Source: Candidatus Limnocylindria bacterium
Lineage (GTDB): Bacteria; Chloroflexota; Limnocylindria; P2-11E
NCBI GenBank assembly: GCA_036001645.1
Contig: DASYUC010000145.1
Span: 1,534 to 65,533 of the forward strand
Reading direction: 5' to 3'
DNA: 64,000 bases
The position numbers and the translations under genes were made by a program. Below the pieces are notes generated by a model, which saw nothing but the letters and a program-made list of their open reading frames with translations, ran no database searches and had not been told where the DNA came from. This document shows positions 10,335 through 26,111 of this stretch, one piece after another. How positions within the stretch are numbered: position 1 is the first letter of the stretch; each line of letters starts with the position of its first letter.

Positions 10335-11355
10335 TGAAGTCTCCACAGACGTGAGTCACAAATAGAAGCCCCCGACTAGGGTGCGCGGTGATCAGACCAA
10401 ACACCACTAGTCGGAGGGTCTTCTTTGTACCAGACAGATCGGCTCAATCCGCGGCTCCGGGCGTTCGTGGTCGCTGAGGCGGAGCGCATCGGAGTTACAC
10501 AGGCCGCGCGCAATGTCGGGGTCAGTCGGCGCACGGTGTACCGCTGGCGCCGGCGAGCACCGGAGTTCGACGACCGTCCGTGCCGTCCACACCGGTCGCC
10601 ACGACGCTGCGCGGACGCGCTGGAGGCGAGCGTGCTCGCCCTGCGATTGGAGGAGCGCATCGGGCCGGACCGGATCGGCCCTTCGCTGGGCCTGCACCCC
10701 AGCACGGTCCACCGAATCCTCCGCCGCCACGGGGCTCACCGGCTCAGCCATCTGTTCCCCAAACCGCCGCGCAGCTTCGGCACCTTCGCGCCGCTGCGAC
10801 CGGGCGAGCTCGTCGGCGTGGATATCAAGAGCTTCGGCAGCCTGGGCCGCGGCGGCGGACGCGCGGCAGTCATGCACCACAACCCCCGCCGCAAGGTGGG
10901 CTGGCGGCATCTGCATGTGGCGATCGACATGGCCAGCCGCCTGGTGTTCAGCGAGTTCCGGCCGACCCTGGCCGGCGCCGACGCGATTGCGTTCGTCGAT
11001 CACGCCACGGCGTTCTTCGCCGGGCGCGGCATCCAGGTCGAGCGGATCCTCACCGACAACGGTTCGGCCTACCGCAGCAATCAGTTCGCAGCTGCCTGTC
11101 GTGCTGCCGGTCTGCGGCACACCCGGACCAAAGTCCGACATCCCTGGACCAACGGCCGGGCCGAGCGGTTCATCGGCACGATCCAGCGCGAGTGCGCGTA
11201 CCGCGACCAGTTCAACAGCGACGAGGAGCGGGCGCTGGCGATCGCGCTCTTCGTTCCCTGGTACAACACACTCCGACCGCACCACGGGCTCGGAGGTCTC
11301 ACGCCGCAGAGCTGGTTAGACCGGTGGCGTGTGACTCAGGTCCGAGGAGACCTCA
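10335..11355 (+). mobile_element. IS481-family insertion sequence (~1.02 kb), apparently intact
   Basis: 26-bp imperfect terminal inverted repeats, 22/26 complementary: TGAAGTCTCCACAGACGTGAGTCACA (10335-10360) and TGTGACTCAGGTCCGAGGAGACCTCA (11330-11355). It is flanked by CCTAGC direct repeats and carries a single DDE transposase ORF. Confidence 0.8.
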
Positions 11356-11360
11356 CCTAG
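10425..11360 (+). CDS. IS481-family DDE transposase (integrase core domain)
   Basis: N-terminal HTH (GVSRRTVYRWRRR). rve-type core: VGVDIK..., TDNGSAYRS, and NGRAERFIGTIQRE. The TTG start at 10425 follows GGAGGG. Confidence 0.9.
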   Translation: MYQTDRLNPRLRAFVVAEAERIGVTQAARNVGVSRRTVYRWRRRAPEFDDRPCRPHRSPRRCADALEASVLALRLEERIGPDRIGPSLGLHPSTVHRILRRHGAHRLSHLFPKPPRSFGTFAPLRPGELVGVDIKSFGSLGRGGGRAAVMHHNPRRKVGWRHLHVAIDMASRLVFSEFRPTLAGADAIAFVDHATAFFAGRGIQVERILTDNGSAYRSNQFAAACRAAGLRHTRTKVRHPWTNGRAERFIGTIQRECAYRDQFNSDEERALAIALFVPWYNTLRPHHGLGGLTPQSWLDRWRVTQVRGDLT

Positions 11361-11369: not shown

Positions 11370-12509
11370 GTGCGTGTCGTCATCGCGAAGAAGCTCCTCT
11401 CCACCGTCGGCGGGTCCGAGGCGCTCGCGCGCGCTCTCGACCGCGAGCTGCGAGCGCTCGGCCACGACGTCACGCTCGTCGGTATGCGTCCGGCGTGGGA
11501 GCGGCCGGGCGTGCCGCGTGAGGCCCTCGCCGCGCCGCCGGGGCCGGTGACGATCCGCGCGAACGGAACGCACTTCGTGTTCATCCCCGCGCGCGGTGGT
11601 CGTATCGGAGCCGCCATCGACGGACTCTTGCCGACCACGCTGGTCCGCCCGGACGATCTTCGACGCGCGGTCGCCGGCGCGGACGTCGTGCATTCGATCG
11701 CCCGGGAGTGGGCCGGCCCGCTGGAGCGGGTCGCGCGCGACGCGGGCGCCGCGTTCGTCGAGACGCCGCTGGTCCATCCCGGACAGCCCTTCTCCGGCGC
11801 GGGCGCGGCAGATGTCGCGCGCTACCGGCGAGACGACGCGGTCATCGCGCTGACCGAATGGGAGGCGGGCTGGTACCGCGGGCGCGGCGTCCGTCAGGTG
11901 CACATCACGGGTATCGGGCCGAACCTGCACGCGCTGCCCGAGGTCCCGCGCGACCCGGCGACGGTGCTCTTTGTGGGGCGACGCGAGCGATACAAGGGCT
12001 ATCACGCACTGCGCGCCGCGGCGCGGCTGGTGTGGGCCGAGCGGGCGGACGCGCACTTCGTCACGATCGGTCAGGCCGCGTGGAACGCCGCCTTCGACCG
12101 CGGCCCGCACGACCCGCGCTGGGTCGACCGCGGTGTCGCGACGGAGGCGGAGAAGGCGGAGGCGTTCGCCCGCGCGACGATCTTCGCAATGCCGTCGGAG
12201 CACGAGACGTTCGGTCACACCTATCTCGAGGCGTGGAGCGCCGGGCTGCCCGTGATCGCCGGCGACATCGCCCCGCTGCACGAAGTGGTGCGTGAAGGCG
12301 TCGACGGACTTCACGTCGCGAACGAGCCGCGCGCCATCGCCGACGCGATCCTCGCGTTGCTGCGCGATCCCGAACGCGGCCGCCGTATGGGCGCGGCCGG
12401 ACGCGAGCGGCTACAGCGCGAGTTCTCGTGGCCGGCGGTCGCGAAGCGGACCGATGCGGCCTATGTTGCGGCGATCTCCACGCGCGACGGGCGTCGGGCG
12501 CGGATGTAA
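11370..12509 (+). CDS. Glycosyltransferase family 4 (GT-B)
   Basis: MRVVIAKKLLSTVGGSE at the N-terminus and ETFGHTYLEAWSAGLPVIAG near the C-terminus. The GTG start lies 8 nt after the IS target duplication. Confidence 0.8.
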   Translation: MRVVIAKKLLSTVGGSEALARALDRELRALGHDVTLVGMRPAWERPGVPREALAAPPGPVTIRANGTHFVFIPARGGRIGAAIDGLLPTTLVRPDDLRRAVAGADVVHSIAREWAGPLERVARDAGAAFVETPLVHPGQPFSGAGAADVARYRRDDAVIALTEWEAGWYRGRGVRQVHITGIGPNLHALPEVPRDPATVLFVGRRERYKGYHALRAAARLVWAERADAHFVTIGQAAWNAAFDRGPHDPRWVDRGVATEAEKAEAFARATIFAMPSEHETFGHTYLEAWSAGLPVIAGDIAPLHEVVREGVDGLHVANEPRAIADAILALLRDPERGRRMGAAGRERLQREFSWPAVAKRTDAAYVAAISTRDGRRARM

Positions 12510-13243
12510 GCGCTCGCGATGCGACCCGCGACGCCCTCGAGCTTCACCTCGCGTGTCACCTCGATGTCGATCGCGTCAAACCCCGCGTCCTCCAGGTCCC
12601 TGGTGTAGTCCGCGAGCGAGATCGTCCCTGCGACGCAGCCCGCCCAGAGGTCGAGCCGTTTCTTCGCGTCGGGCGCGAGTTCCTCGAGCGCGACCATGTC
12701 GGCGACCGCGAAGCGGCCGTCGGGCCGGAGCACGCGGAACGCCTCGCGCAGCACGGCGCCCTTGTCCGCGGCGAGATTGATGACGCAGTTGGAGATCACG
12801 ACGTCGACCGACGCGTCCGGCAGCGGAACGCTTTCGATCGTGCCCTTCAGAAAGGTGGCGTTGCCGAGACCGGCCTTGGCCTGGTTCTCCCGCGCCACGG
12901 CGAGCATCTCATCGGTCATGTCGACGCCGTAGGCGTGACCGCCCGGCGCGACGCGGCGCGCGGAGAGGAGGACGTCGAGGCCGGCCCCGGAGCCGAGGTC
13001 GAGCACGACCTCGCCGGGATGGAGATCCGCCAGCAGCGTGGGGTTGCCACAGCCGAGGCTGACGCTCGGGTCCAGCCCGAGGCTCGCGAGCTCTTCCGCC
13101 GCATAGCCTTCGCCGCAGCCATTCGCATCGCAGCAGCTGTCATCGCAGCACGACGAGCCCTTCGCCATGTCGAGCGCTCGCTCTGCGTACCTCGCGCGTA
13201 CGGTCTCCTGGATCTCGTTCCCTGTGTCCTCCGGACGACCCAT
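12461..13243 (-). CDS. arsM: Arsenite S-adenosylmethionine methyltransferase
   Basis: SAM motif VLDLGSGAGLD. The three conserved ArsM cysteines sit in LGCGNP, SNCVINL and WAGCVAG, and there is an N-terminal CC..CC cluster. Start is either the ATG at 13243 (preferred) or 13279. Confidence 0.88.
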   Translation of the reverse strand: MGRPEDTGNEIQETVRARYAERALDMAKGSSCCDDSCCDANGCGEGYAAEELASLGLDPSVSLGCGNPTLLADLHPGEVVLDLGSGAGLDVLLSARRVAPGGHAYGVDMTDEMLAVARENQAKAGLGNATFLKGTIESVPLPDASVDVVISNCVINLAADKGAVLREAFRVLRPDGRFAVADMVALEELAPDAKKRLDLWAGCVAGTISLADYTRDLEDAGFDAIDIEVTREVKLEGVAGRIASAYIRARRPSRVEIAAT

Positions 13244-13252
13244 CGATGGGTC
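13237..13252. promoter_or_regulatory. 16-bp perfect palindrome GACCCATCGATGGGTC over the arsM start
   Basis: Read directly. It shares the half-site ACGACCCAT with the neighbouring 12-6-12 palindrome. Confidence 0.5.
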
Positions 13253-13270
13253 TCGATGCCTAATGTCTAG

Positions 13271-13300
13271 ACGACCCATTGATATTTGTCAATGGGTCGT
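13271..13300. promoter_or_regulatory. 12-6-12 perfect inverted repeat (candidate ArsR operator) in the arsM/arsR divergent spacer
   Basis: ACGACCCATTGA TATTTG TCAATGGGTCGT sits in an AT-richer patch 15 nt upstream of the arsR ATG. Confidence 0.6.
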
Positions 13301-13314
13301 GTAGCATCGCAGCC

Positions 13315-13656
13315 ATGGTGAAGCTGGACGTCCTGCCCGCACGGGAGCGAGGCGTGTGCTGCGCTGTTGAGCTCGAAGTGCCGCCGGTGCGGGCGACGGA
13401 GCTGGCCGATGTCCTGAAGGCGCTGGCCGATCCAACACGGTTGCAGATGATCCTCGCGCTCCGCGCTTCGAAGGAGCCGGTGTGCATCTGCGACTTCACC
13501 GCCACGTTCGATCTGTCGCAGCCGACGCTCTCGCATCACATGGCGAAGCTGCGTGAGGCGGGTCTCGTCGAGGCGACGCGACAGGGGATCTGGGCCTACT
13601 ACCGCCTGAAGCCGCACCTGCCCGCGCACGTTCGAAAGATCATCGACGCCCTCTGA
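13315..13656 (+). CDS. arsR: ArsR/SmtB-family metalloregulator
   Basis: LADPTRLQMILAL...PVCICDF...LSQPTLSHHMAKLREAGLV is a wHTH with the CxC metal site. Trimmed to the ATG at 13315. Confidence 0.85.
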   Translation: MVKLDVLPARERGVCCAVELEVPPVRATELADVLKALADPTRLQMILALRASKEPVCICDFTATFDLSQPTLSHHMAKLREAGLVEATRQGIWAYYRLKPHLPAHVRKIIDAL

Positions 13657-13659
13657 CCG

Positions 13660-13971
13660 CTAGTGCGAGGCGCGGGCCTGACGGCGCCTGATCACGACGA
13701 CGGAAAGCAGCACGGCGACCTGAAGCACTAGGACCGCGGCGATGATGAGGACCGGCGTTTCGGGTGCGCCGAGTGCCTCCCGAAACGCGCCGGTAGCGTC
13801 GAGGGCGGCGATCACTCCGATGCCGATGACCGCCGCTACCACGGTCCAACCGAGAGAGACGTCGGGCGTGACTGCCGCAAGCCAGTTCGGCGCCCGGGTG
13901 CTGCGCTGAAGCAGCCTGATTCCGATCAAGAGAAGTCCGATCGTCACCGCCGTCCAGATCGGCGAGATCAT
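13660..13971 (-). CDS. Small membrane protein (103 aa, ~3 TM), unknown function
   Basis: Hydrophobic segments separated by short loops. It is the last gene of the MauE/Cys-rich precursor operon. Confidence 0.5.
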   Translation of the reverse strand: MISPIWTAVTIGLLLIGIRLLQRSTRAPNWLAAVTPDVSLGWTVVAAVIGIGVIAALDATGAFREALGAPETPVLIIAAVLVLQVAVLLSVVVIRRRQARASH

Positions 13972-13999: not shown

Positions 14000-14821
14000 T
14001 TATCCGCACGGCTTGCAAACGTAGTAGCAGGAGTACGCGGTGACGACGCTGCACATGACCACGGTCACGACCTCGCAGACGGCACCACACAGTGGGCAGA
14101 TGATCGCGAGCCCGCCGCAGACGACGGTGCTCTCGTAGAGGCATGAGAGCTCCACGGTAAGAGCGCACACGATCGAACACATGACGCCTTCGACACCGCA
14201 GTCCGCGTTAGGCGCGGCAAGGCCCGGCGGTCGCCCTCGGCCGGATGTGCGGATGACCTTGCGCGTGCCGTCCGCGAATACGATCGTCGCCTCAGCGGTC
14301 CCGAGAAATACTGTGGATCGCCGGCGGGCGGCGCCGGACTGCACGTCGAAGACCTCGACGGTCCTCTGATCGACGTCGTTCCACCGCAGGACGAAGGACT
14401 TGAGGCCTCCCTGTGCCTCGAGGGCGTGATACAGCTTTGCCGAGCGCCCGTGTCCGTCCGAGAACGGCATGGCCACAAAGTGCCCGCGCAGGCGCGGGTC
14501 CGTCTTGAGGTGCGCTCGCGATCCGTATGCCAGGCCCGGCTGCGCGACCATCCCATCGCTCTCGAGCGCGGCCCAGAGCAGGCGTCCGGCCCCATCCGCT
14601 CGTGCGTCACCGAGCGCGCGACCGATCGCGGCTCGATCGAGCTGCTCGATGACCATGTTGCCCTCCGTCGTGGCCCCCGCGCCCGAGCTCGGCGGCTCTC
14701 CGGCCAGCGCGATCTCAGGCATGAGCCCGCTCGCCTTTGCGACGAGGCCTCCCGCACCGGCTGCGACGATGGACAGGACTTTTCGCCTCGAGAGGTCAGT
14801 CACGTTCGTCCTCCTGTTCAT
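14000..14821 (-). CDS. Tat-signal secreted precursor (273 aa) with 12-Cys hydrophobic C-terminal tail (halocin C8-like architecture)
   Basis: MNRRTNVTDLSRRKVLSIVAAGAGGLVA is a twin-arginine signal. The last ~66 aa are CGVEGVMCSIVCALTVELSCLYESTVVCGGLAIICPLCGAVCEVVTVVMCSVVTAYSCYYVCKPCG. The ATG at 14821 lies 1 nt after the MauE-like stop. Confidence 0.7.
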   Translation of the reverse strand: MNRRTNVTDLSRRKVLSIVAAGAGGLVAKASGLMPEIALAGEPPSSGAGATTEGNMVIEQLDRAAIGRALGDARADGAGRLLWAALESDGMVAQPGLAYGSRAHLKTDPRLRGHFVAMPFSDGHGRSAKLYHALEAQGGLKSFVLRWNDVDQRTVEVFDVQSGAARRRSTVFLGTAEATIVFADGTRKVIRTSGRGRPPGLAAPNADCGVEGVMCSIVCALTVELSCLYESTVVCGGLAIICPLCGAVCEVVTVVMCSVVTAYSCYYVCKPCG

Positions 14822-14822
14822 T

Positions 14823-15383
14823 TCACGTTTGGCCTGTCGTTGGAGCGACTGAGAGCGTGGGCGTGATGCGGACCCGCGATCGGACACCAAGCGCGCCCGA
14901 CGAGAGCGTGCTGGCAAGGAAGACGGCTGCGAGAGCAGCGTTCGCGAGCGACCACGGAGCGGACGCGTTCCGCGCCAGCTCAGCCGCCGTCAGCGCCGCG
15001 ACGAGAACGACATTCCGCGAGACGAGCGTCCATGAGATGAGGGTCGACGGGCGGTCCGCACCGCAGCCGCACGGATGGCGTCTGCCGTTCCACAGCGAAC
15101 GCGCCATGGCCATCTCGAACGCGGCCAGCAACCCGCCCGCACCGAGCGCTGTGAGATCCCTCGCCAGTCCGAGGACCAACGCGGCGCCGAGACCGATCTC
15201 GATCCACGGCAGGGTCCGCGCGAACAGCCGCTGCTGATCGCCGCTCCCGATCTCATATCGGCCGACCGCGGCGATGACCGCGCTCTCGTCCGCGCGGACC
15301 TTCACGATCCCCGCGACGAGCAGGAACGCCCCGATGATGAGCTCCACTCCGAGAGAAACTGCCCCCATTGCCTCCGCCACCAT
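14823..15383 (-). CDS. MauE/DoxX-family redox-associated membrane protein
   Basis: Four-TM profile with a PCGCG motif, as in methylamine-utilisation protein MauE. Confidence 0.7.
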   Translation of the reverse strand: MVAEAMGAVSLGVELIIGAFLLVAGIVKVRADESAVIAAVGRYEIGSGDQQRLFARTLPWIEIGLGAALVLGLARDLTALGAGGLLAAFEMAMARSLWNGRRHPCGCGADRPSTLISWTLVSRNVVLVAALTAAELARNASAPWSLANAALAAVFLASTLSSGALGVRSRVRITPTLSVAPTTGQT

Positions 15384-15451: not shown

Positions 15452-15688
15452 CTAGGGACGGCCGCGCATCCAGAGAGCCACGGCGGCCGCCCGGGAACGG
15501 ATCTGCAGGTCGTCGAAGAGCCGCTCGAGGTGCGTTCGGACGGTCCGCTGCGAGATCCCTAACCTCGCGGCGATCTGCTTGTCGCCGAAGCCGAGCGCGA
15601 TGAGCTCCACGATCTCCGACTCTCGCGCGGAGAAGAGCGGCGCTGCGGACCCTTCGTCTGACGCTGATCGACCCTCCGCCTGGCGCAT
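15452..15688 (-). CDS. Stand-alone LuxR/GerE HTH protein (78 aa)
   Basis: SARESEIVELIALGFGDKQIAARLGISQRTVRTHLERLF. Confidence 0.7.
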   Translation of the reverse strand: MRQAEGRSASDEGSAAPLFSARESEIVELIALGFGDKQIAARLGISQRTVRTHLERLFDDLQIRSRAAAVALWMRGRP

Positions 15689-23942: not shown

Positions 23943-24006
23943 GTGAACACCTCCGCGGAAATATCGGGAAAGGGGGGTGCAGGAGGCGTGCCGTGGGCTT
24001 TTGCTG

Positions 24007-24078
24007 TACCCCCGAGGCGGATCGAACGCCTGTCTACGGCTTCGGAGGCCGCCGCTCTATCCACTGAGCTACGGGGGC
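24007..24078 (-). tRNA. tRNA-Arg (anticodon CCG)
   Basis: Reverse complement GCCCCCGTAGCTCAGTGGATAGAGCGGCGGCCTCCGAAGCCGTAGACAGGCGTTCGATCCGCCTCGGGGGTA folds as a cloverleaf. The anticodon loop is CTCCGAA. No CCA is encoded. Confidence 0.85.
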
Positions 24079-24115: not shown

Positions 24116-24862
24116 ATGTCCGTTAGCGTGAACACGATGTCCGACCGCGACAAGGAGCTATCGCTCGTCCAGCACTTGGGGGAGTTCCGCGACCGCCTCA
24201 TGGTGGCGTCGATCGCGGTGGTCGTCACGACGGCGATCTCGTTCGTCTTCACGACGGAGATCATCAAGCTCCTCATCCTTCCGGTCGGCGAGGGGATCAA
24301 GCTGTCGTCGTTCAACCCGACCGAGAACTTCGCGACCTACATGCGCGTGGCGCTGTTCAGCGGCATCGCGCTCGCCATGCCCGTCATCCTGTACGAGATC
24401 TACGCGTACATCGATCCAGCGCTGCATGCCAACGAGCGCCGCTTCGCGTTGACGCTGGGCCCGTTCATCCTGCTCTTGTTCGTCGGCGGGATGCTCTTCT
24501 GCTACTTCTTCGTGTTGCCGAACGCCCTGAAGTTCCTCATCAACTTCGCGAGCGACGTGTTCGAGAATCAGCTTCGGGCCTCGGAATACCTCTCGTTCGT
24601 CACGACGTTCATCCTCGGGATGGGCATCGTCTTCGAAATGCCGGTGCTGATCTTTGCGCTGATCAAGGTCGGAGTCGTCCGGCATTCATGGCTCGCGAAG
24701 CAGCGGCGCTACGTCGTCGTCGTCGTCCTCATCGTCGCGGCGATCGTGACCCCCACACCCGACCCCTTCAATCAGCTCCTGGTCGCGATCCCTATGTATC
24801 TCCTGTTCGAGATCGGTCTTTTCCTCGGACGCTTCGGCGGAGGTCGTCGAGCCGCATCTTGA
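24116..24862 (+). CDS. tatC: Twin-arginine translocase subunit TatC
   Basis: [13 protein letters not shown]-terminus and a six-TM TatC pattern. Confidence 0.9.
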
Positions 24863-26111
24863 GCTTCGCCTCCGCTCCGAGGTCCGTCGGCACGTAGTAG
24901 CGGCGGCCCTGGAGCGACTCGGGGAGGTAGGTCGTGTCGGGCGCGACGTGATCGTCGTAGTCGTGCGCGTACTTGTAGTCCTTCCCGTATCCGAGCTTGG
25001 ACATGAGCGGCGTCGGCGCATTGCGCAGGTGCAGCGGCACCGGGTCCGCGCGGGTCTCGGCGAGGTCCTTCTGCAGCTCCCCGAGGCCACGCTTCAGTGA
25101 GTCCGACTTCGGCGCGAGCGCCAGGTACACGGTCGCCTCCGCCAGGGGGAACCACCCCTCGGGAAATCCGATGAGATGCGTCGCCTGCTGCGCCGCGGAC
25201 GCGATGACCAACGCCTGCGGATCGGCGAGCCCGATGTCCTCGCCGGCGAGGATGACGATGCGACGCGCGATGAACATCGGGTCCTCGCCCGCGTCGATCA
25301 TGCGCATGAGCCAATAGAGCGCGGCATCCGGATCCGATCCGCGGACGCTCTTGATGAACGCGCTGATCGTGTCGTAGTGCTGATCGCCGGCGCGGTCGTA
25401 GAGCAGGCTGCGGCGCTGCATGGCCTCGCGGACGTCCGGCAGTCCGATGAGACGCATGCCTTCCGCGTTCGGCGCGATCGCGTCGGAGGCAAGCTCGAGC
25501 GCGTTGAGCGCGACGCGCGCGTCACCGTTGGACACCGCGACGAGCGCATCTTCGGCCTCCGTCGTGAGAGACACCTTGCCGGCGAGACCTCGCTCGTCCG
25601 TCAGCGCGCGGCGCACGATGATGCGGACGTCGTCTTCCGATAGCGGCTGCAGCACGTAGACGCGCGATCGCGACAGGAGCGCAGAATTCACCTCGAACGA
25701 AGGGTTCTCGGTCGTAGCGCCGAGGAAGGTGACGTCACCGTTCTCGACGTACGGAAGGACCACGTCCTGCTGCGCCTTGTTGAAGCGGTGGATCTCGTCG
25801 ATGAAGAGCACCGTGCCCTGGTTCGTCAGCTGCCGCAGCTTGCGCGACTCCTCGATGATCTTTCGCAGCTCTGCGACGCCGCTCGACACCGCGGAGATCG
25901 CCACGAAGCGCGCCTTGGCCTTCTTCGCGGCGATCGCGGCGAGCGTCGTCTTCCCCGTTCCGGGTGGTCCCCACAGGATCATCGAAGGAAGCTGCCCGGC
26001 GTCGATCGCCCGACGGAGCATGCGGTCGTCGCCGACGAGATGCGGCTGGCCAACGAACTCGTCGAGGTCGCGCGGACGCATGCGCGCGGCGAGGGGCTGC
26101 GGGGACGGCAT
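24792..26111 (-). CDS. rarA: Replication-associated recombination protein A (AAA ATPase)
   Basis: [30 protein letters not shown], and [11 protein letters not shown]. Confidence 0.9.

What the first reader, a model, noticed from the sequence alone, without database searches (positions are those of the whole stretch)
14000..14821. Tat-exported 273-aa precursor with a 12-cysteine hydrophobic C-terminal tail: halocin C8-like architecture in a bacterium
Seen: a twin-arginine signal (SRRKVL plus a hydrophobic core) and a ~200-aa soluble domain without cysteines. The protein then ends in ~66 residues holding all 12 Cys in a Val/Ile/Leu/Ala-rich context (CGVEGVMCSIVCALTVELSCLYESTVVCGGLAIICPLCGAVCEVVTVVMCSVVTAYSCYYVCKPCG). 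Recollection: the archaeal microhalocin HalC8 is a ~76-aa hydrophobic, disulfide-rich peptide. It is cut from the C-terminus of a ~283-aa Tat-signal precursor whose N-terminal part acts as the immunity protein. Size, signal type, domain order and Cys-rich hydrophobic tail all match that layout. I could not align it to HalC8 here, so homology is a hypothesis. Alternatives are a thiol-rich metal or arsenic binder (arsR/arsM are adjacent) or an unusual membrane anchor.
Basis: partly seen in the sequence, partly recalled or inferred. Interest (0 to 1): 0.78.

Follow-up and report, generated by a model that had tools for sequence, protein, structure and literature searches.

The report
MauE-linked halocin C8-like precursor cassette
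This Chloroflexota gene encodes an exported protein whose very hydrophobic 12-cysteine tail is a distant relative of the archaeal antimicrobial peptide halocin C8, and it sits in a conserved four-gene cassette with its own disulfide-forming enzyme and a partner membrane protein that behaves like an immunity gene.

Summary
Window 14000-14821 (-) encodes a 273-aa protein (more likely 267 aa, from GTG 14803). It has an SRRKVL Tat motif, a Cys-free domain, and all 12 Cys in the last 66 residues.

No curated HalC8 model hits the protein itself (TIGR04449, PF22862). It does belong to a family of at least 83 clusters. As a profile, that family matches annotated archaeal halocin C8-like proteins along their length (hhalign 96%, E 4e-9).

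- A MauE gene abuts the precursor in every bacterial locus with enough upstream DNA. MauE is a DsbB-like disulfide generator, and its CGC motif is invariant here.
- Optional cysteines across 71 relatives come and go in nested pairs (phi 0.93-0.96). AlphaFold2 predicts a helical hairpin (pLDDT 76-92). Together these imply a six-rung disulfide ladder.
- In a close relative (L016) everything after the signal peptide is replaced by a 35%-identical allele carrying its own small membrane protein. A pseudogenised old tail and an intact old 103-aa gene remain (dN/dS 0.27).

Best reading: a MauE-matured, HalC8-like bacteriocin-immunity cassette. The arsR/arsM neighbours are incidental. Secretion, cleavage and killing are untested.

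The parts
15452..15688 (-). Small stand-alone LuxR/GerE-type HTH regulator (78 aa), first gene of the cassette
   Evidence: PF00196 GerE at 53.3 bits. A GerE-family gene lies upstream of MauE in the L001-4, L016, L021 and L023/24 loci. In L014 and L007 it is a roughly 560-aa LuxR-type protein.
14823..15383 (-). MauE-family membrane protein (186 aa), the putative DsbB-like disulfide generator. Its stop codon lies 1 nt before the precursor's ATG.
   Evidence: PF07291 at 75.2 bits against a cut-off of 27. It is adjacent in all bacterial loci with enough upstream DNA. Experimental DsbB replacement and the CXC active site are reported in preprint 10.64898/2026.03.05.709764.
15063..15071 (-). Codons for the invariant C105-G106-C107 motif of MauE
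   Evidence: Invariant in the alignment of 7 cassette MauE proteins, together with K28 and E62. Coordinates are computed from the ORF start at 15383.
14000..14821 (-). HalC8-like precursor gene (273 aa from ATG 14821, or 267 aa from the likelier GTG 14803). The stop codon is at 14000-14002.
14702..14821 (-). Tat signal region (residues 1-40: SRRKVL, hydrophobic core, ALA|GE candidate signal-peptidase site). It is also the conserved 5' segment at which allele replacement begins.
   Evidence: Motif by inspection. Tat-substrate signal peptides are the only PDB sequence hits. DNA homology with L016 ends at window 14698, which is codon 41/42. The region is nearly identical even in the 35%-identical allele P0018.
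14249..14659 (-). Cys-free N-terminal domain (residues 55-191): two helices plus an eight-stranded sheet or barrel
   Evidence: AlphaFold2 with the 67-sequence alignment gives pLDDT 91-98. Cys-free hhalign against the I clade gives E 5.6e-20 and against the G clade E 4.7e-15. There is no significant PDB fold match, only weak ToxS/VtrC/LolB-like hints.
14210..14233 (-). Conserved linker motif R-P-P-G-L-A-A-P (residues 197-204) just before the first Cys. It is a candidate processing site (inference).
   Evidence: R197, P199, G200, A203 and P204 are invariant in A1. Similar (K/R)(G/A)PGLAAP-like motifs occur in the T and I clade tails. The segment has low pLDDT.
14003..14200 (-). Cys-rich hydrophobic C-terminal domain (residues 208-273). 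Predicted helical hairpin 210-241 / 243-269 with an inferred nested disulfide ladder: 208-272, 215-269, 219-265, 227-257, 235-249, 242-245.
   Evidence: paired gain and loss of Cys; pLDDT 76-92; GRAVY 1.47; spacing matches HalC8 C22-x7-C30-x13-C44-x7-C52.
13660..13971 (-). 103-aa small membrane protein (three hydrophobic segments, basic C-terminus), the candidate cognate immunity or partner protein
   Evidence: A small 79-123-aa protein follows the precursor in all loci; those examined are hydrophobic with a basic C-terminus. Its type co-varies with the precursor type. It is retained intact under purifying selection in L016 next to a pseudogenised tail.

Best explanation
This is a four-gene cassette: a small LuxR/GerE regulator, MauE, a precursor and a small membrane protein. 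It makes a halocin C8-like, disulfide-laddered hydrophobic peptide domain.

Proposed mechanism:
1. The precursor is exported by the Tat pathway (inferred from the signal).
2. Outside the cytoplasm, the translationally coupled MauE, a quinone-linked DsbB-like oxidase with a CGC active site, oxidises the 12 cysteines of the C-terminal domain. Whether it does so directly or through an unidentified thioredoxin-like carrier is unknown.
3. The product is six nested disulfides that staple an antiparallel helical hairpin. This is inferred from paired Cys gain and loss and from the structure prediction.
4. By analogy with ProC8, the hairpin is probably released from the Cys-free N-terminal domain at or near the conserved PGLAAP linker and acts on neighbouring cells' envelopes.
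5. The N-terminal domain, the downstream small membrane protein, or both protect the producer.

The locus behaves like a polymorphic toxin-immunity locus. Alleles are swapped downstream of the conserved signal peptide together with their own small membrane protein, and old partner genes are kept.
For: Family membership and link to HalC8:
- The target-clade HMM finds 83 clusters in 1.8 billion proteins, 38 of them at E<=1e-10.
- Cys-free N-domains of the target clade match the I and G clades at E 5.6e-20 and 4.7e-15. The tails match at 1.4e-5 and 2.7e-9.
- The family profile against archaeal halocin C8-like proteins gives 96%, E 4e-9, over 239 collinear columns.
- I and G tails against six archaeal HalC8 domains score above all 150 column shuffles.
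- TIGR04449, NF040679 and TIGR04450 give sub-threshold hits to 9, 3 and 4 of 67 members. Those seen in detail lie on the tail, or on the tail plus the end of the N-domain.
- The positive control, HalC8 itself, scores 61.5 bits.

Disulfide chemistry:
- MauE abuts the precursor in every bacterial locus with upstream DNA.
- C-G-C, K28 and E62 are invariant. These match the experimentally defined CXC site and the predicted quinone ligands.
- 13 long members instead carry an N-terminal (F/Y)(D/N)xGCxxC domain resembling a DCC thiol-disulfide oxidoreductase.
- Optional Cys co-occur only in the pairs expected for an antiparallel register: 223/261 phi 0.96, 219/265 phi 0.93, 208/272 phi 0.93. Residue 245 is accompanied by 239 (44 sequences) or 242 (12) in 56 of the 60 sequences that have it; four have neither.
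- AlphaFold2 predicts the hairpin at pLDDT 76-92.

Conflict-locus behaviour:
- In L016 the flanking genes are 79-91% identical (holB, GerE, MauE, 103-aa gene, GT4), but the precursor is 35% identical.
- DNA homology breaks at codon 41/42 and resumes inside the old tail.
- That old tail is a pseudogene with an in-frame stop. The 103-aa gene after it is intact with dN/dS 0.27.
- The new allele brings a 114-aa protein that is 63% identical to the one following the related allele P0023.
Against: - The window protein and its own clade profile do not reach TIGR04449, PF22862 or the archaeal alignment. The tail-only test gave 12 of 150 shuffles at or above the observed score. Homology to HalC8 therefore rests on intermediates.
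- No protease, ABC exporter or thioredoxin-like carrier is in the cassette.
- Apart from the L016 replacement, the type-A locus keeps its position in the syntenic relatives L001-L004, which is less patchy than many bacteriocin loci.
- The allele-replacement evidence comes from one metagenomic contig.
- One earlier study, cited in the MauE preprint, suggested MauE may act as a reductase.
- The helical versus beta nature of the hairpin, and the disulfides themselves, are predictions.
- No structure coordinates were available to measure S-S distances.
Confidence: 0.55

Rival explanations
1. It is a resident envelope protein, not a weapon. The disulfide-stapled hydrophobic hairpin is a C-terminal membrane anchor that holds the N-terminal barrel-like domain on the outer face of the cytoplasmic membrane. 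The small membrane protein is a structural partner. The function would be something like lipid or hydrophobic-ligand handling.
For: - The tail is as hydrophobic as transmembrane segments (GRAVY 1.47) and is predicted as two helices of about 30 residues.
- The N-domain gives weak fold hints to the ligand-binding barrels ToxS, VtrC and LolB (prob 0.5-0.66).
- The locus keeps its position in the syntenic relatives L001-L004.
- No exporter or protease is encoded nearby.
Against: - Disulfide formation by a periplasm-facing CXC oxidase is hard to reconcile with a hairpin buried in the bilayer.
- Replacement of the whole mature region together with a new small partner protein, while the old partner is retained under purifying selection, is the pattern of toxin-immunity loci, not of housekeeping anchors.
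- The family-level relation to HalC8 precursors, whose tail is a released peptide, also argues against it.
Confidence: 0.2
2. It is a thiolate-based metal or metalloid binder, a hydrophobic analogue of the Tat-exported copper storage protein Csp1 or an arsenite sink. MauE would keep the cysteines reduced. The paired cysteines would be bis-thiolate metal sites rather than disulfides.
For: - arsR and arsM adjoin the cassette in the window.
- Paired gain and loss of Cys would also fit two-ligand metal sites.
- One study, cited, proposed reductase activity for MauE.
Against: - arsR/arsM are missing at the same place in L016 and in every other cassette locus.
- ArsR is divergently transcribed.
- There is no sequence or fold match to Csp or any metal-binding protein in the PDB.
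- A nearly uncharged, Val/Ile/Leu-rich exterior does not suit a soluble storage protein.
- MauE complemented DsbB, that is, it acted as an oxidase.
Confidence: 0.07
3. The protein is MauE's redox partner, a DsbA-like disulfide carrier for general oxidative folding. The CP(P/L)C motif at the hairpin turn would be its active site.
For: - MauE proteins are thought to need a thioredoxin-like intermediary, and none is encoded in the cassette.
- The target clade has C242-P-x-C245 at the turn.
Against: - Cys242 is present in only 17% of family members, so the CPxC motif is not a family feature.
- There is no thioredoxin fold.
- A general folding catalyst would not be swapped for a 35%-identical allele between close relatives.
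Confidence: 0.04

Closest known systems
Halocin C8 precursor ProC8 (HalI-HalC8) of Natrinema and other haloarchaea; NCBIfam TIGR04449 halocin_C8_dom, Pfam PF22862 Hac8_like_N
   Same: - N-terminal Tat signal, then a Cys-free domain of about 150-200 aa, then a hydrophobic Cys-rich domain of about 70 aa at the very C-terminus.
- The core Cys spacing C-x7-C-x13-C-x7-C and the loop pattern C-G-x-L-x-I-x-x-P-x-x-G-x-x-C align with HalC8 C22...C52.
- Family-level profile match of 96%.
- Small membrane proteins flank the archaeal genes as well.
   Different: - It falls below every curated threshold.
- It has 12 Cys in a strictly palindromic pattern, against 10 in HalC8.
- It is much more hydrophobic (GRAVY 1.47 against 0.89).
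- It is bacterial (Chloroflexota).
- It is always preceded by MauE, which is absent within 5-7 kb of the archaeal genes examined.
- No halT-type ABC transporter genes are present.
Bacterial HalC8 homologues already described (Bacillota TIGR04450 / NF040679 'halocin C8 precursor-like'; Nitrolancea hollandica RHS-HalC8 fusions; Makarova et al. 2019 as cited in preprint 10.64898/2026.07.27.741052)
   Same: - These are bacterial proteins with a C-terminal HalC8-like domain.
- Some have an N-terminal region structurally similar to HalI.
- One set is in a Chloroflexota species.
   Different: - Those proteins were defined by passing the TIGR04449 gathering score, and only 26 bacterial proteins were found in GTDB r214. 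The present family fails that score and would have been missed.
- The Staphylococcus ones use Sec signals and have no conserved neighbours. Here the signal is Tat-type and the four-gene neighbourhood is conserved.
Methylamine dehydrogenase small subunit maturation (MauA with MauE/MauD)
   Same: An exported protein with six disulfides depends on a MauE encoded in the same cluster.
   Different: There is no MauD, no other mau genes and no TTQ enzyme. The substrate here is an unrelated hydrophobic hairpin.
Polymorphic toxin-immunity loci with orphan modules (CDI cdiA-CT/cdiI, Rhs; general knowledge and PMC3482391)
   Same: - A conserved 5' part and a variable 3' part, swapped together with the downstream partner gene.
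- A displaced 3' fragment and its partner gene are left behind.
   Different: - Here the conserved part is only a 41-codon signal peptide.
- The 'toxin' is a whole 230-aa mature protein of one fold family rather than diverse enzymatic tips.
- Only one displaced module has been seen so far.
Disulfide-stapled helical hairpins (twin CX3C small Tim proteins, twin CX9C CHCH proteins, plant alpha-hairpinins) - from general knowledge
   Same: Antiparallel helices are joined by nested disulfides between CX3C-type motifs on each arm.
   Different: Those proteins have two rungs, and a few CHCH proteins have three. This one is inferred to have six, and up to seven in relatives, in a far more hydrophobic sequence.

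Membership tests
Halocin C8-like domain family (TIGR04449) / ProC8 precursors | C-terminal domain scores at or above the TIGR04449 cut-off (24 bits) | tested here: not met
   There is no hit at E<=10 for the full protein or the isolated tail. The positive control HalC8 scores 61.5 bits. The best relatives are P0041 at 20.3 bits and P0028 at 16.6 bits.
Halocin C8-like domain family (TIGR04449) / ProC8 precursors | N-terminal HalI-type domain (Pfam PF22862 Hac8_like_N) | tested here: not met
   No hit for the target or any of the 67 relatives at E<=1. The preprint reports the same failure for accepted bacterial homologues. G-clade N-domains against three archaeal N-domains give hhalign 55%, E 1.2e-4.
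Halocin C8-like domain family (TIGR04449) / ProC8 precursors | Profile-level homology to bona fide members | tested here: inconclusive
   The family profile A2 against archaeal A6 gives 96%, E 4e-9. The I and G tails beat all 150 shuffles. The target clade alone is not significant. Its link to the I and G clades is strong.
Halocin C8-like domain family (TIGR04449) / ProC8 precursors | Tat signal, then Cys-free domain, then roughly 70-aa Cys-rich hydrophobic domain at the extreme C-terminus | tested here: met
   Tat models hit 17 of 67 relatives.
Halocin C8-like domain family (TIGR04449) / ProC8 precursors | Proteolytic release of the C-terminal peptide, antimicrobial activity, and immunity from the N-terminal part | not testable with these tools
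   This requires expression and assays. Only a conserved PGLAAP linker in a low-confidence segment is seen.
MauE (PF07291), DsbB-like disulfide-forming membrane protein (the neighbouring gene) | Pfam PF07291 above the gathering score | tested here: met
   75.2 bits against a cut-off of 27, residues 8-132.
MauE (PF07291), DsbB-like disulfide-forming membrane protein (the neighbouring gene) | CXC active-site motif, plus conserved Lys and Glu proposed to hold the quinone | tested here: met
   C105-G-C107, K28 and E62 are invariant in 7 cassette MauE proteins at 29-77% identity. The motif is defined experimentally. Equivalence of the K and E positions to those in the preprint was not checked structurally.
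MauE (PF07291), DsbB-like disulfide-forming membrane protein (the neighbouring gene) | Oxidase activity on this substrate | not testable with these tools
   Inferred only from gene abutment, which is a 1-nt gap here and a 4-nt overlap in L014, L020, L021 and L023.
Polymorphic toxin-immunity locus | Conserved 5' part and replaced 3' part between close relatives, with a displaced 3' remnant | tested here: met
   based on one contig (L016).
Polymorphic toxin-immunity locus | The downstream partner gene co-varies with the toxin type and is kept as an orphan | tested here: met
   The 114-aa protein of L016 is 63% identical to the partner of the related allele P0023 and unrelated to the 103-aa type. 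The orphan 103-aa gene has dN/dS 0.27.
Polymorphic toxin-immunity locus | Demonstrated toxicity and cognate protection | not testable with these tools
Csp1/Csp3 copper storage proteins | Soluble four-helix bundle with a Cys-lined core, with sequence or fold similarity to Csp | tested here: not met
   No Csp entry appears among the PDB fold or sequence hits. The exterior is hydrophobic.

The most novel reading that the evidence does not exclude
A previously unrecognised, widespread bacterial branch of the halocin C8 superfamily (at least 83 clusters at 50% identity, in Chloroflexota and other bacteria) is produced by a self-contained cassette. In this cassette a dedicated MauE installs a six- to seven-rung nested disulfide ladder on a hydrophobic helical hairpin. 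That would make it the first natural dedicated substrate for the newly described MauE oxidative-folding pathway outside methylamine dehydrogenase. The cassette would diversify like a polymorphic toxin-immunity locus, by swapping everything downstream of the Tat signal peptide.
Probability: 0.4. Interest if true: 0.75.

Novelty: new variant of a known kind. Interest (0 to 1): 0.62.

Why it matters
HalC8 is one of only three halocin families with a known precursor sequence (H4, C8, S8). Its processing, disulfide map, structure and mode of action are still open. This bacterial branch adds information in four ways:

- It provides dozens of divergent sequences whose paired cysteine gain and loss predict the disulfide connectivity.
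- It supplies an obligate partner enzyme, MauE, that can be tested genetically.
- It offers a natural allele-replacement experiment that points to the small membrane protein as the cognate protective factor.
- It gives the very recent claim that MauE is a general DsbB-like oxidase a concrete, co-encoded substrate.

It also shows that surveys using the TIGR04449 gathering score undercount bacterial HalC8 relatives. For Chloroflexota, whose antagonistic repertoire is poorly known, it is a candidate bacteriocin system.

Tried and rejected
- Direct NCBIfam and Pfam scans of the protein, the tail alone and the N-domain alone gave nothing relevant.
- A word-indexed search with the recalled HalC8 peptide returned only one protein, P0100, which is 92% identical. 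My recalled sequence is therefore approximate. That protein's locus holds a stand-alone 114-aa gene and no MauE.
- Re-searching with the A2 profile was limited by the candidate cap and added only a Desulfosporosinus protein.
- A metagenome scan with HalC8 patterns found no confirmed relative.
- tblastn of the target and of P0093 against PLSDB found nothing.
- The target-clade profile against archaeal HalC8, both tail-only and full-length, was not significant.
- PDB fold searches with both models gave no hit below E 0.04.
- The PDB sequence search matched essentially only Tat signal peptides.
- Makarova et al. 2019 could not be read, because it is not held.
- Rejected: a link to arsenic, because the ars genes are not conserved with the cassette.
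- Rejected: compositional evidence for recent transfer, because GC is 64-70% throughout.
- Rejected: any RNA element in the region, because Rfam and ARAGORN find only a distant tRNA.
- Promoter and terminator scans gave nothing usable for the operon.
Full report
OBSERVATION

The minus-strand ORF at window 14000-14821 encodes 273 aa. It has an S-R-R-K-V-L twin-arginine motif followed by a hydrophobic core. Residues 1-207 contain no cysteine. The twelve cysteines are at residues 208, 215, 219, 227, 235, 242, 245, 249, 257, 265, 269 and 272. They sit in a Val/Ile/Leu/Ala-rich tail with GRAVY 1.47, one basic residue and four acidic residues.

One refinement concerns the start codon. The upstream gene's stop (TGA 14825-14823) lies 1 nt before the ATG. 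A perfect AGGAGG at 14815-14810 precedes GTG 14803 by 6 nt, and most orthologues start there at 267 aa. GTG 14803 is therefore the likelier start.

The protein is conserved. Seventeen homologues at 35-100% identity, all unannotated metagenomic or MAG proteins, keep 11 of the 12 Cys invariant or nearly so. The genomes are Chloroflexota MAGs.

IS IT HALC8-LIKE?

Curated models say no for this protein. NCBIfam TIGR04449 (halocin_C8_dom) and Pfam PF22862 (Hac8_like_N) give nothing for the whole protein or its parts. A HalC8 peptide that I recalled from memory scores 61.5 bits on TIGR04449. That peptide is 92% identical to a Natrinema protein.

A profile of the target clade was searched exhaustively against 1.8 billion representatives. 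It finds 83 clusters, 38 of them at E<=1e-10, and most matches run nearly full-length.

I split the 67 full-length relatives (A2) into three groups:
- the target (T) clade;
- an I clade (P0028, P0029, P0041 and others);
- a G clade, whose tails end in ...GYC.

The Cys-free N-domains alone link T to I (hhalign E 5.6e-20) and T to G (4.7e-15). The tails link T to G at 2.7e-9 and T to I at 1.4e-5. The family is therefore real in both domains and is not a compositional artefact.

Independent curated models then touch this family weakly, at the C-terminal end wherever the hit was seen in detail:
- TIGR04449 hits 9 of 67 members. P0041 scores 20.3 bits against a cut-off of 24 and covers model positions 2-65 of 69. 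P0028 scores 16.6 bits.
- NF040679 ('halocin C8 precursor-like') hits 3 members.
- TIGR04450 ('putative immunity/bacteriocin fusion') hits 4 members.

I obtained bona fide archaeal proteins, annotated by PGAP as halocin C8-like, from haloarchaeal plasmids. Against six archaeal HalC8 domains the results were:
- G tails give E 6e-5, and 0 of 150 column shuffles reach that score;
- I tails give E 1e-3, also 0 of 150;
- T tails alone are not significant (E 0.048, 12 of 150).

Full-length, the family profile A2 aligns with three archaeal precursors at 96% probability and E 4e-9. The alignment covers 239 collinear columns from the RR motif through the N-domain into the Cys tail. The shallow T-clade profile alone does not align.

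By eye, and in the hhalign alignment, the target's C227-x7-C235-x13-C249-x7-C257 matches HalC8 C22-x7-C30-x13-C44-x7-C52. The loop CGGLAIICPLCGAVC matches CGLLGITIPVAGLSC, with C, G, L, I, P, G and C identical.

Conclusion: this is a remote, transitive homologue of HalC8 precursors with the same architecture. It is not a member by any curated threshold.

Immediately upstream is a MauE-family membrane protein (PF07291, 75 bits). Downstream is a 103-aa hydrophobic protein with three hydrophobic segments. Upstream of MauE is a 78-aa LuxR/GerE HTH protein.

The MauE-precursor-small-protein order recurs in different genomic neighbourhoods. The MauE stop and the precursor start often overlap by 4 nt. 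The order is seen in:
- T-clade loci (L001-L007, L016);
- the related alleles P0021 and P0023 (L021, L023, L024);
- I-clade loci (L014, L020);
- a G-clade locus (L018).

A tblastn check finds MauE in every bacterial locus with upstream DNA. It finds none within 5-7 kb of the archaeal genes. A GerE-family regulator usually precedes MauE.

They are incidental.

MauE AND DISULFIDES

A 2026 preprint shows that MauE proteins replace DsbB in E. coli. It also shows that a CXC motif in the TM3-TM4 loop is essential, and that conserved Glu and Lys residues are predicted to hold the quinone. In seven cassette MauE proteins at 29-77% identity, C105-G-C107, K28 and E62 are invariant.

Thirteen longer family members (355-380 aa) instead carry an N-terminal domain of about 100 aa with a conserved (F/Y)(D/N)xGCxxC motif. 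One of them hits the DCC thiol-disulfide oxidoreductase family PF04134. The one such locus seen is too short to show the upstream genes. Thiol-redox partners are thus a constant of the family.

CONNECTIVITY

The target's cysteines are palindromic: 215+269 = 219+265 = 227+257 = 235+249 = 484. Across 71 aligned tails, six Cys columns are essentially invariant (215, 227, 235, 249, 257, 269).

The optional columns appear and disappear together in exactly the pairs that an antiparallel register predicts:

| Pair | phi | both / first only / second only / neither |
|---|---|---|
| 223/261 | 0.96 | 15 / 0 / 1 / 55 |
| 219/265 | 0.93 | 48 / 1 / 1 / 21 |
| 208/272 | 0.93 | 63 / 0 / 1 / 7 |

Cys245 is accompanied by Cys239 in 44 sequences and, in the T clade, by Cys242 in 12. 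In four sequences it has neither. Relatedness inflates such statistics, but several distinct Cys patterns occur.

AlphaFold2 with the 67-sequence alignment gives the following:
- mean pLDDT 80.6;
- N-domain (two helices plus eight strands) at 91-98;
- two long helices, 210-241 and 243-269, at 76-92.

I therefore infer a helical hairpin zipped by six nested disulfides. HalC8's ten Cys can be nested in the same way. I could not inspect coordinates, so no S-S distances were checked. The spacing of four residues between rungs is unusual for long straight helices.

The N-domain has no significant PDB match. There are only weak hints to the ToxS, VtrC and LolB barrels.

EVIDENCE FOR A CONFLICT FUNCTION

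Contig L016 comes from a close relative. Amino-acid identity to the window is:

| Gene | Identity |
|---|---|
| holB | 91% |
| GerE | 88% |
| MauE | 79% |
| 103-aa gene | 81% |
| GT4 | 86% |
| precursor (P0018) | 35% |

DNA homology runs through MauE and the first 41 codons of the precursor. It stops at window 14698, which is just after the predicted ALA|GE signal-peptidase site. It resumes at window 14187, inside the Cys-tail coding region.

In L016 that resumed stretch is a pseudogenised old tail...GVTEGC*YESAVVCGASPLCPPCGAVCEVVTVILC... It has an in-frame stop. The intact 103-aa gene follows it, with dN/dS 0.27. This is similar to MauE at 0.28 and far from neutrality.

Between the two breakpoints sit the new mature region and a new 114-aa membrane protein. 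That protein is unrelated to the 103-aa type, but it is 63% identical to the protein that follows the related allele P0023 elsewhere.

This pattern has three elements: a conserved leader, a swapped mature region with its own partner, and a retained orphan partner. It is the signature of polymorphic toxin-immunity loci. It argues that the small membrane protein is the cognate protective partner. The evidence rests on one contig.

MECHANISM: WHAT IS SHOWN AND WHAT IS INFERRED

Shown by computation:
- family membership;
- cassette conservation;
- the MauE motifs;
- Cys pairing statistics;
- the predicted fold;
- allele replacement.

Inferred:
- Tat export, supported by the motif, by Tat-substrate signal peptides being essentially the only PDB sequence hits, and by a tatC homologue about 9.5 kb away;
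- oxidation by MauE;
- release at the PGLAAP linker;
- antimicrobial action;
- immunity from the small protein and/or the N-domain.

Rivals considered:
- a resident membrane-anchored envelope protein;
- a thiolate metal binder;
- a DsbA-like carrier for MauE.

None is excluded experimentally. The last two fit the data poorly.

NOVELTY

Bacterial HalC8 homologues are known, in Bacillota, in Nitrolancea RHS fusions and in WOR-3. They were defined by the TIGR04449 gathering score, and only 26 proteins were found in GTDB r214. No conserved neighbours were seen in the Staphylococcus genomes examined.

In the held literature no paper mentions both MauE and halocin C8. One genome-mining paper noted mauE in candidate RiPP clusters of Streptomyces.

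The present family, its obligate MauE, the nested-ladder prediction and the allele-swap behaviour appear to be undescribed. This is a new variant of a known kind rather than a new category.

Noticed in passing
window 10335-11355: An IS481-type transposase ORF (10425-11360, 311 aa) sits between two GT4 glycosyltransferase genes. The syntenic contig L001 (82-89% DNA identity from window 24609 to 3334) lacks this roughly 1-kb segment, so it is a recent insertion in the window's genome.
   Followed up: partly
window 12461-13656: The arsR (13279-13656, +) and arsM-like methyltransferase (12461-13279, -) pair is present here and in L001-L004. It is absent at the same position in L016, where the 103-aa gene directly adjoins the GT4 gene. 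It is an independent insertion or deletion and not part of the cassette.
   Followed up: partly
P0055, P0063, P0065, P0069, P0071, P0073, P0075, P0078, P0081, P0082, P0087, P0091, P0094 (L019:364-1461 for P0055): Thirteen family members of 355-380 aa carry an N-terminal domain of about 100 aa with the motif (F/Y)(D/N)xGCxxC, resembling a DCC thiol-disulfide oxidoreductase, placed before the RR-hydrophobic segment. In these proteins the RR-hydrophobic segment lies about 100 residues from the N-terminus, so it may act as a membrane anchor rather than a cleaved signal.
   Followed up: partly
L011:4033-4260(-), L011:5304-5510(+), L012:4026-4253(-), L012:5299-5505(+): In the Halobacterium salinarum and Haloferax larsenii plasmids the annotated halocin C8-like gene is bracketed by two conserved small hydrophobic 'hypothetical' proteins, 75 aa upstream and 68 aa downstream. 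This is reminiscent of the small partner protein in the bacterial cassette.
   Followed up: no
window 14702-14821 and the same region of P0018 (L016:2785-2890): The signal-peptide region is the most conserved part of the protein: 32 of 35 residues are identical in an allele that is 35% identical overall. Signal peptides usually evolve fast. Here the region seems to serve as the recombination anchor, and perhaps it is also a retained membrane anchor, given a weak PF25471 PetC-anchor hit (E 0.051).
   Followed up: partly
L008:6590-6934: A Natrinema-type contig encodes a stand-alone 114-aa HalC8-like protein (92% identical to the mature HalC8 as I recalled it). It has no long N-terminal domain, and ABC-transporter genes lie nearby. 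Not all archaeal copies have the ProC8 architecture.
   Followed up: no
window 24006-24078 and about 24120-24870: tRNA-Arg(CCG) is the only RNA gene found in the window. The adjacent stretch is homologous to a tatC gene (PF00902 in L001). The genome therefore encodes a Tat component about 9.5 kb from the cassette.
   Followed up: partly
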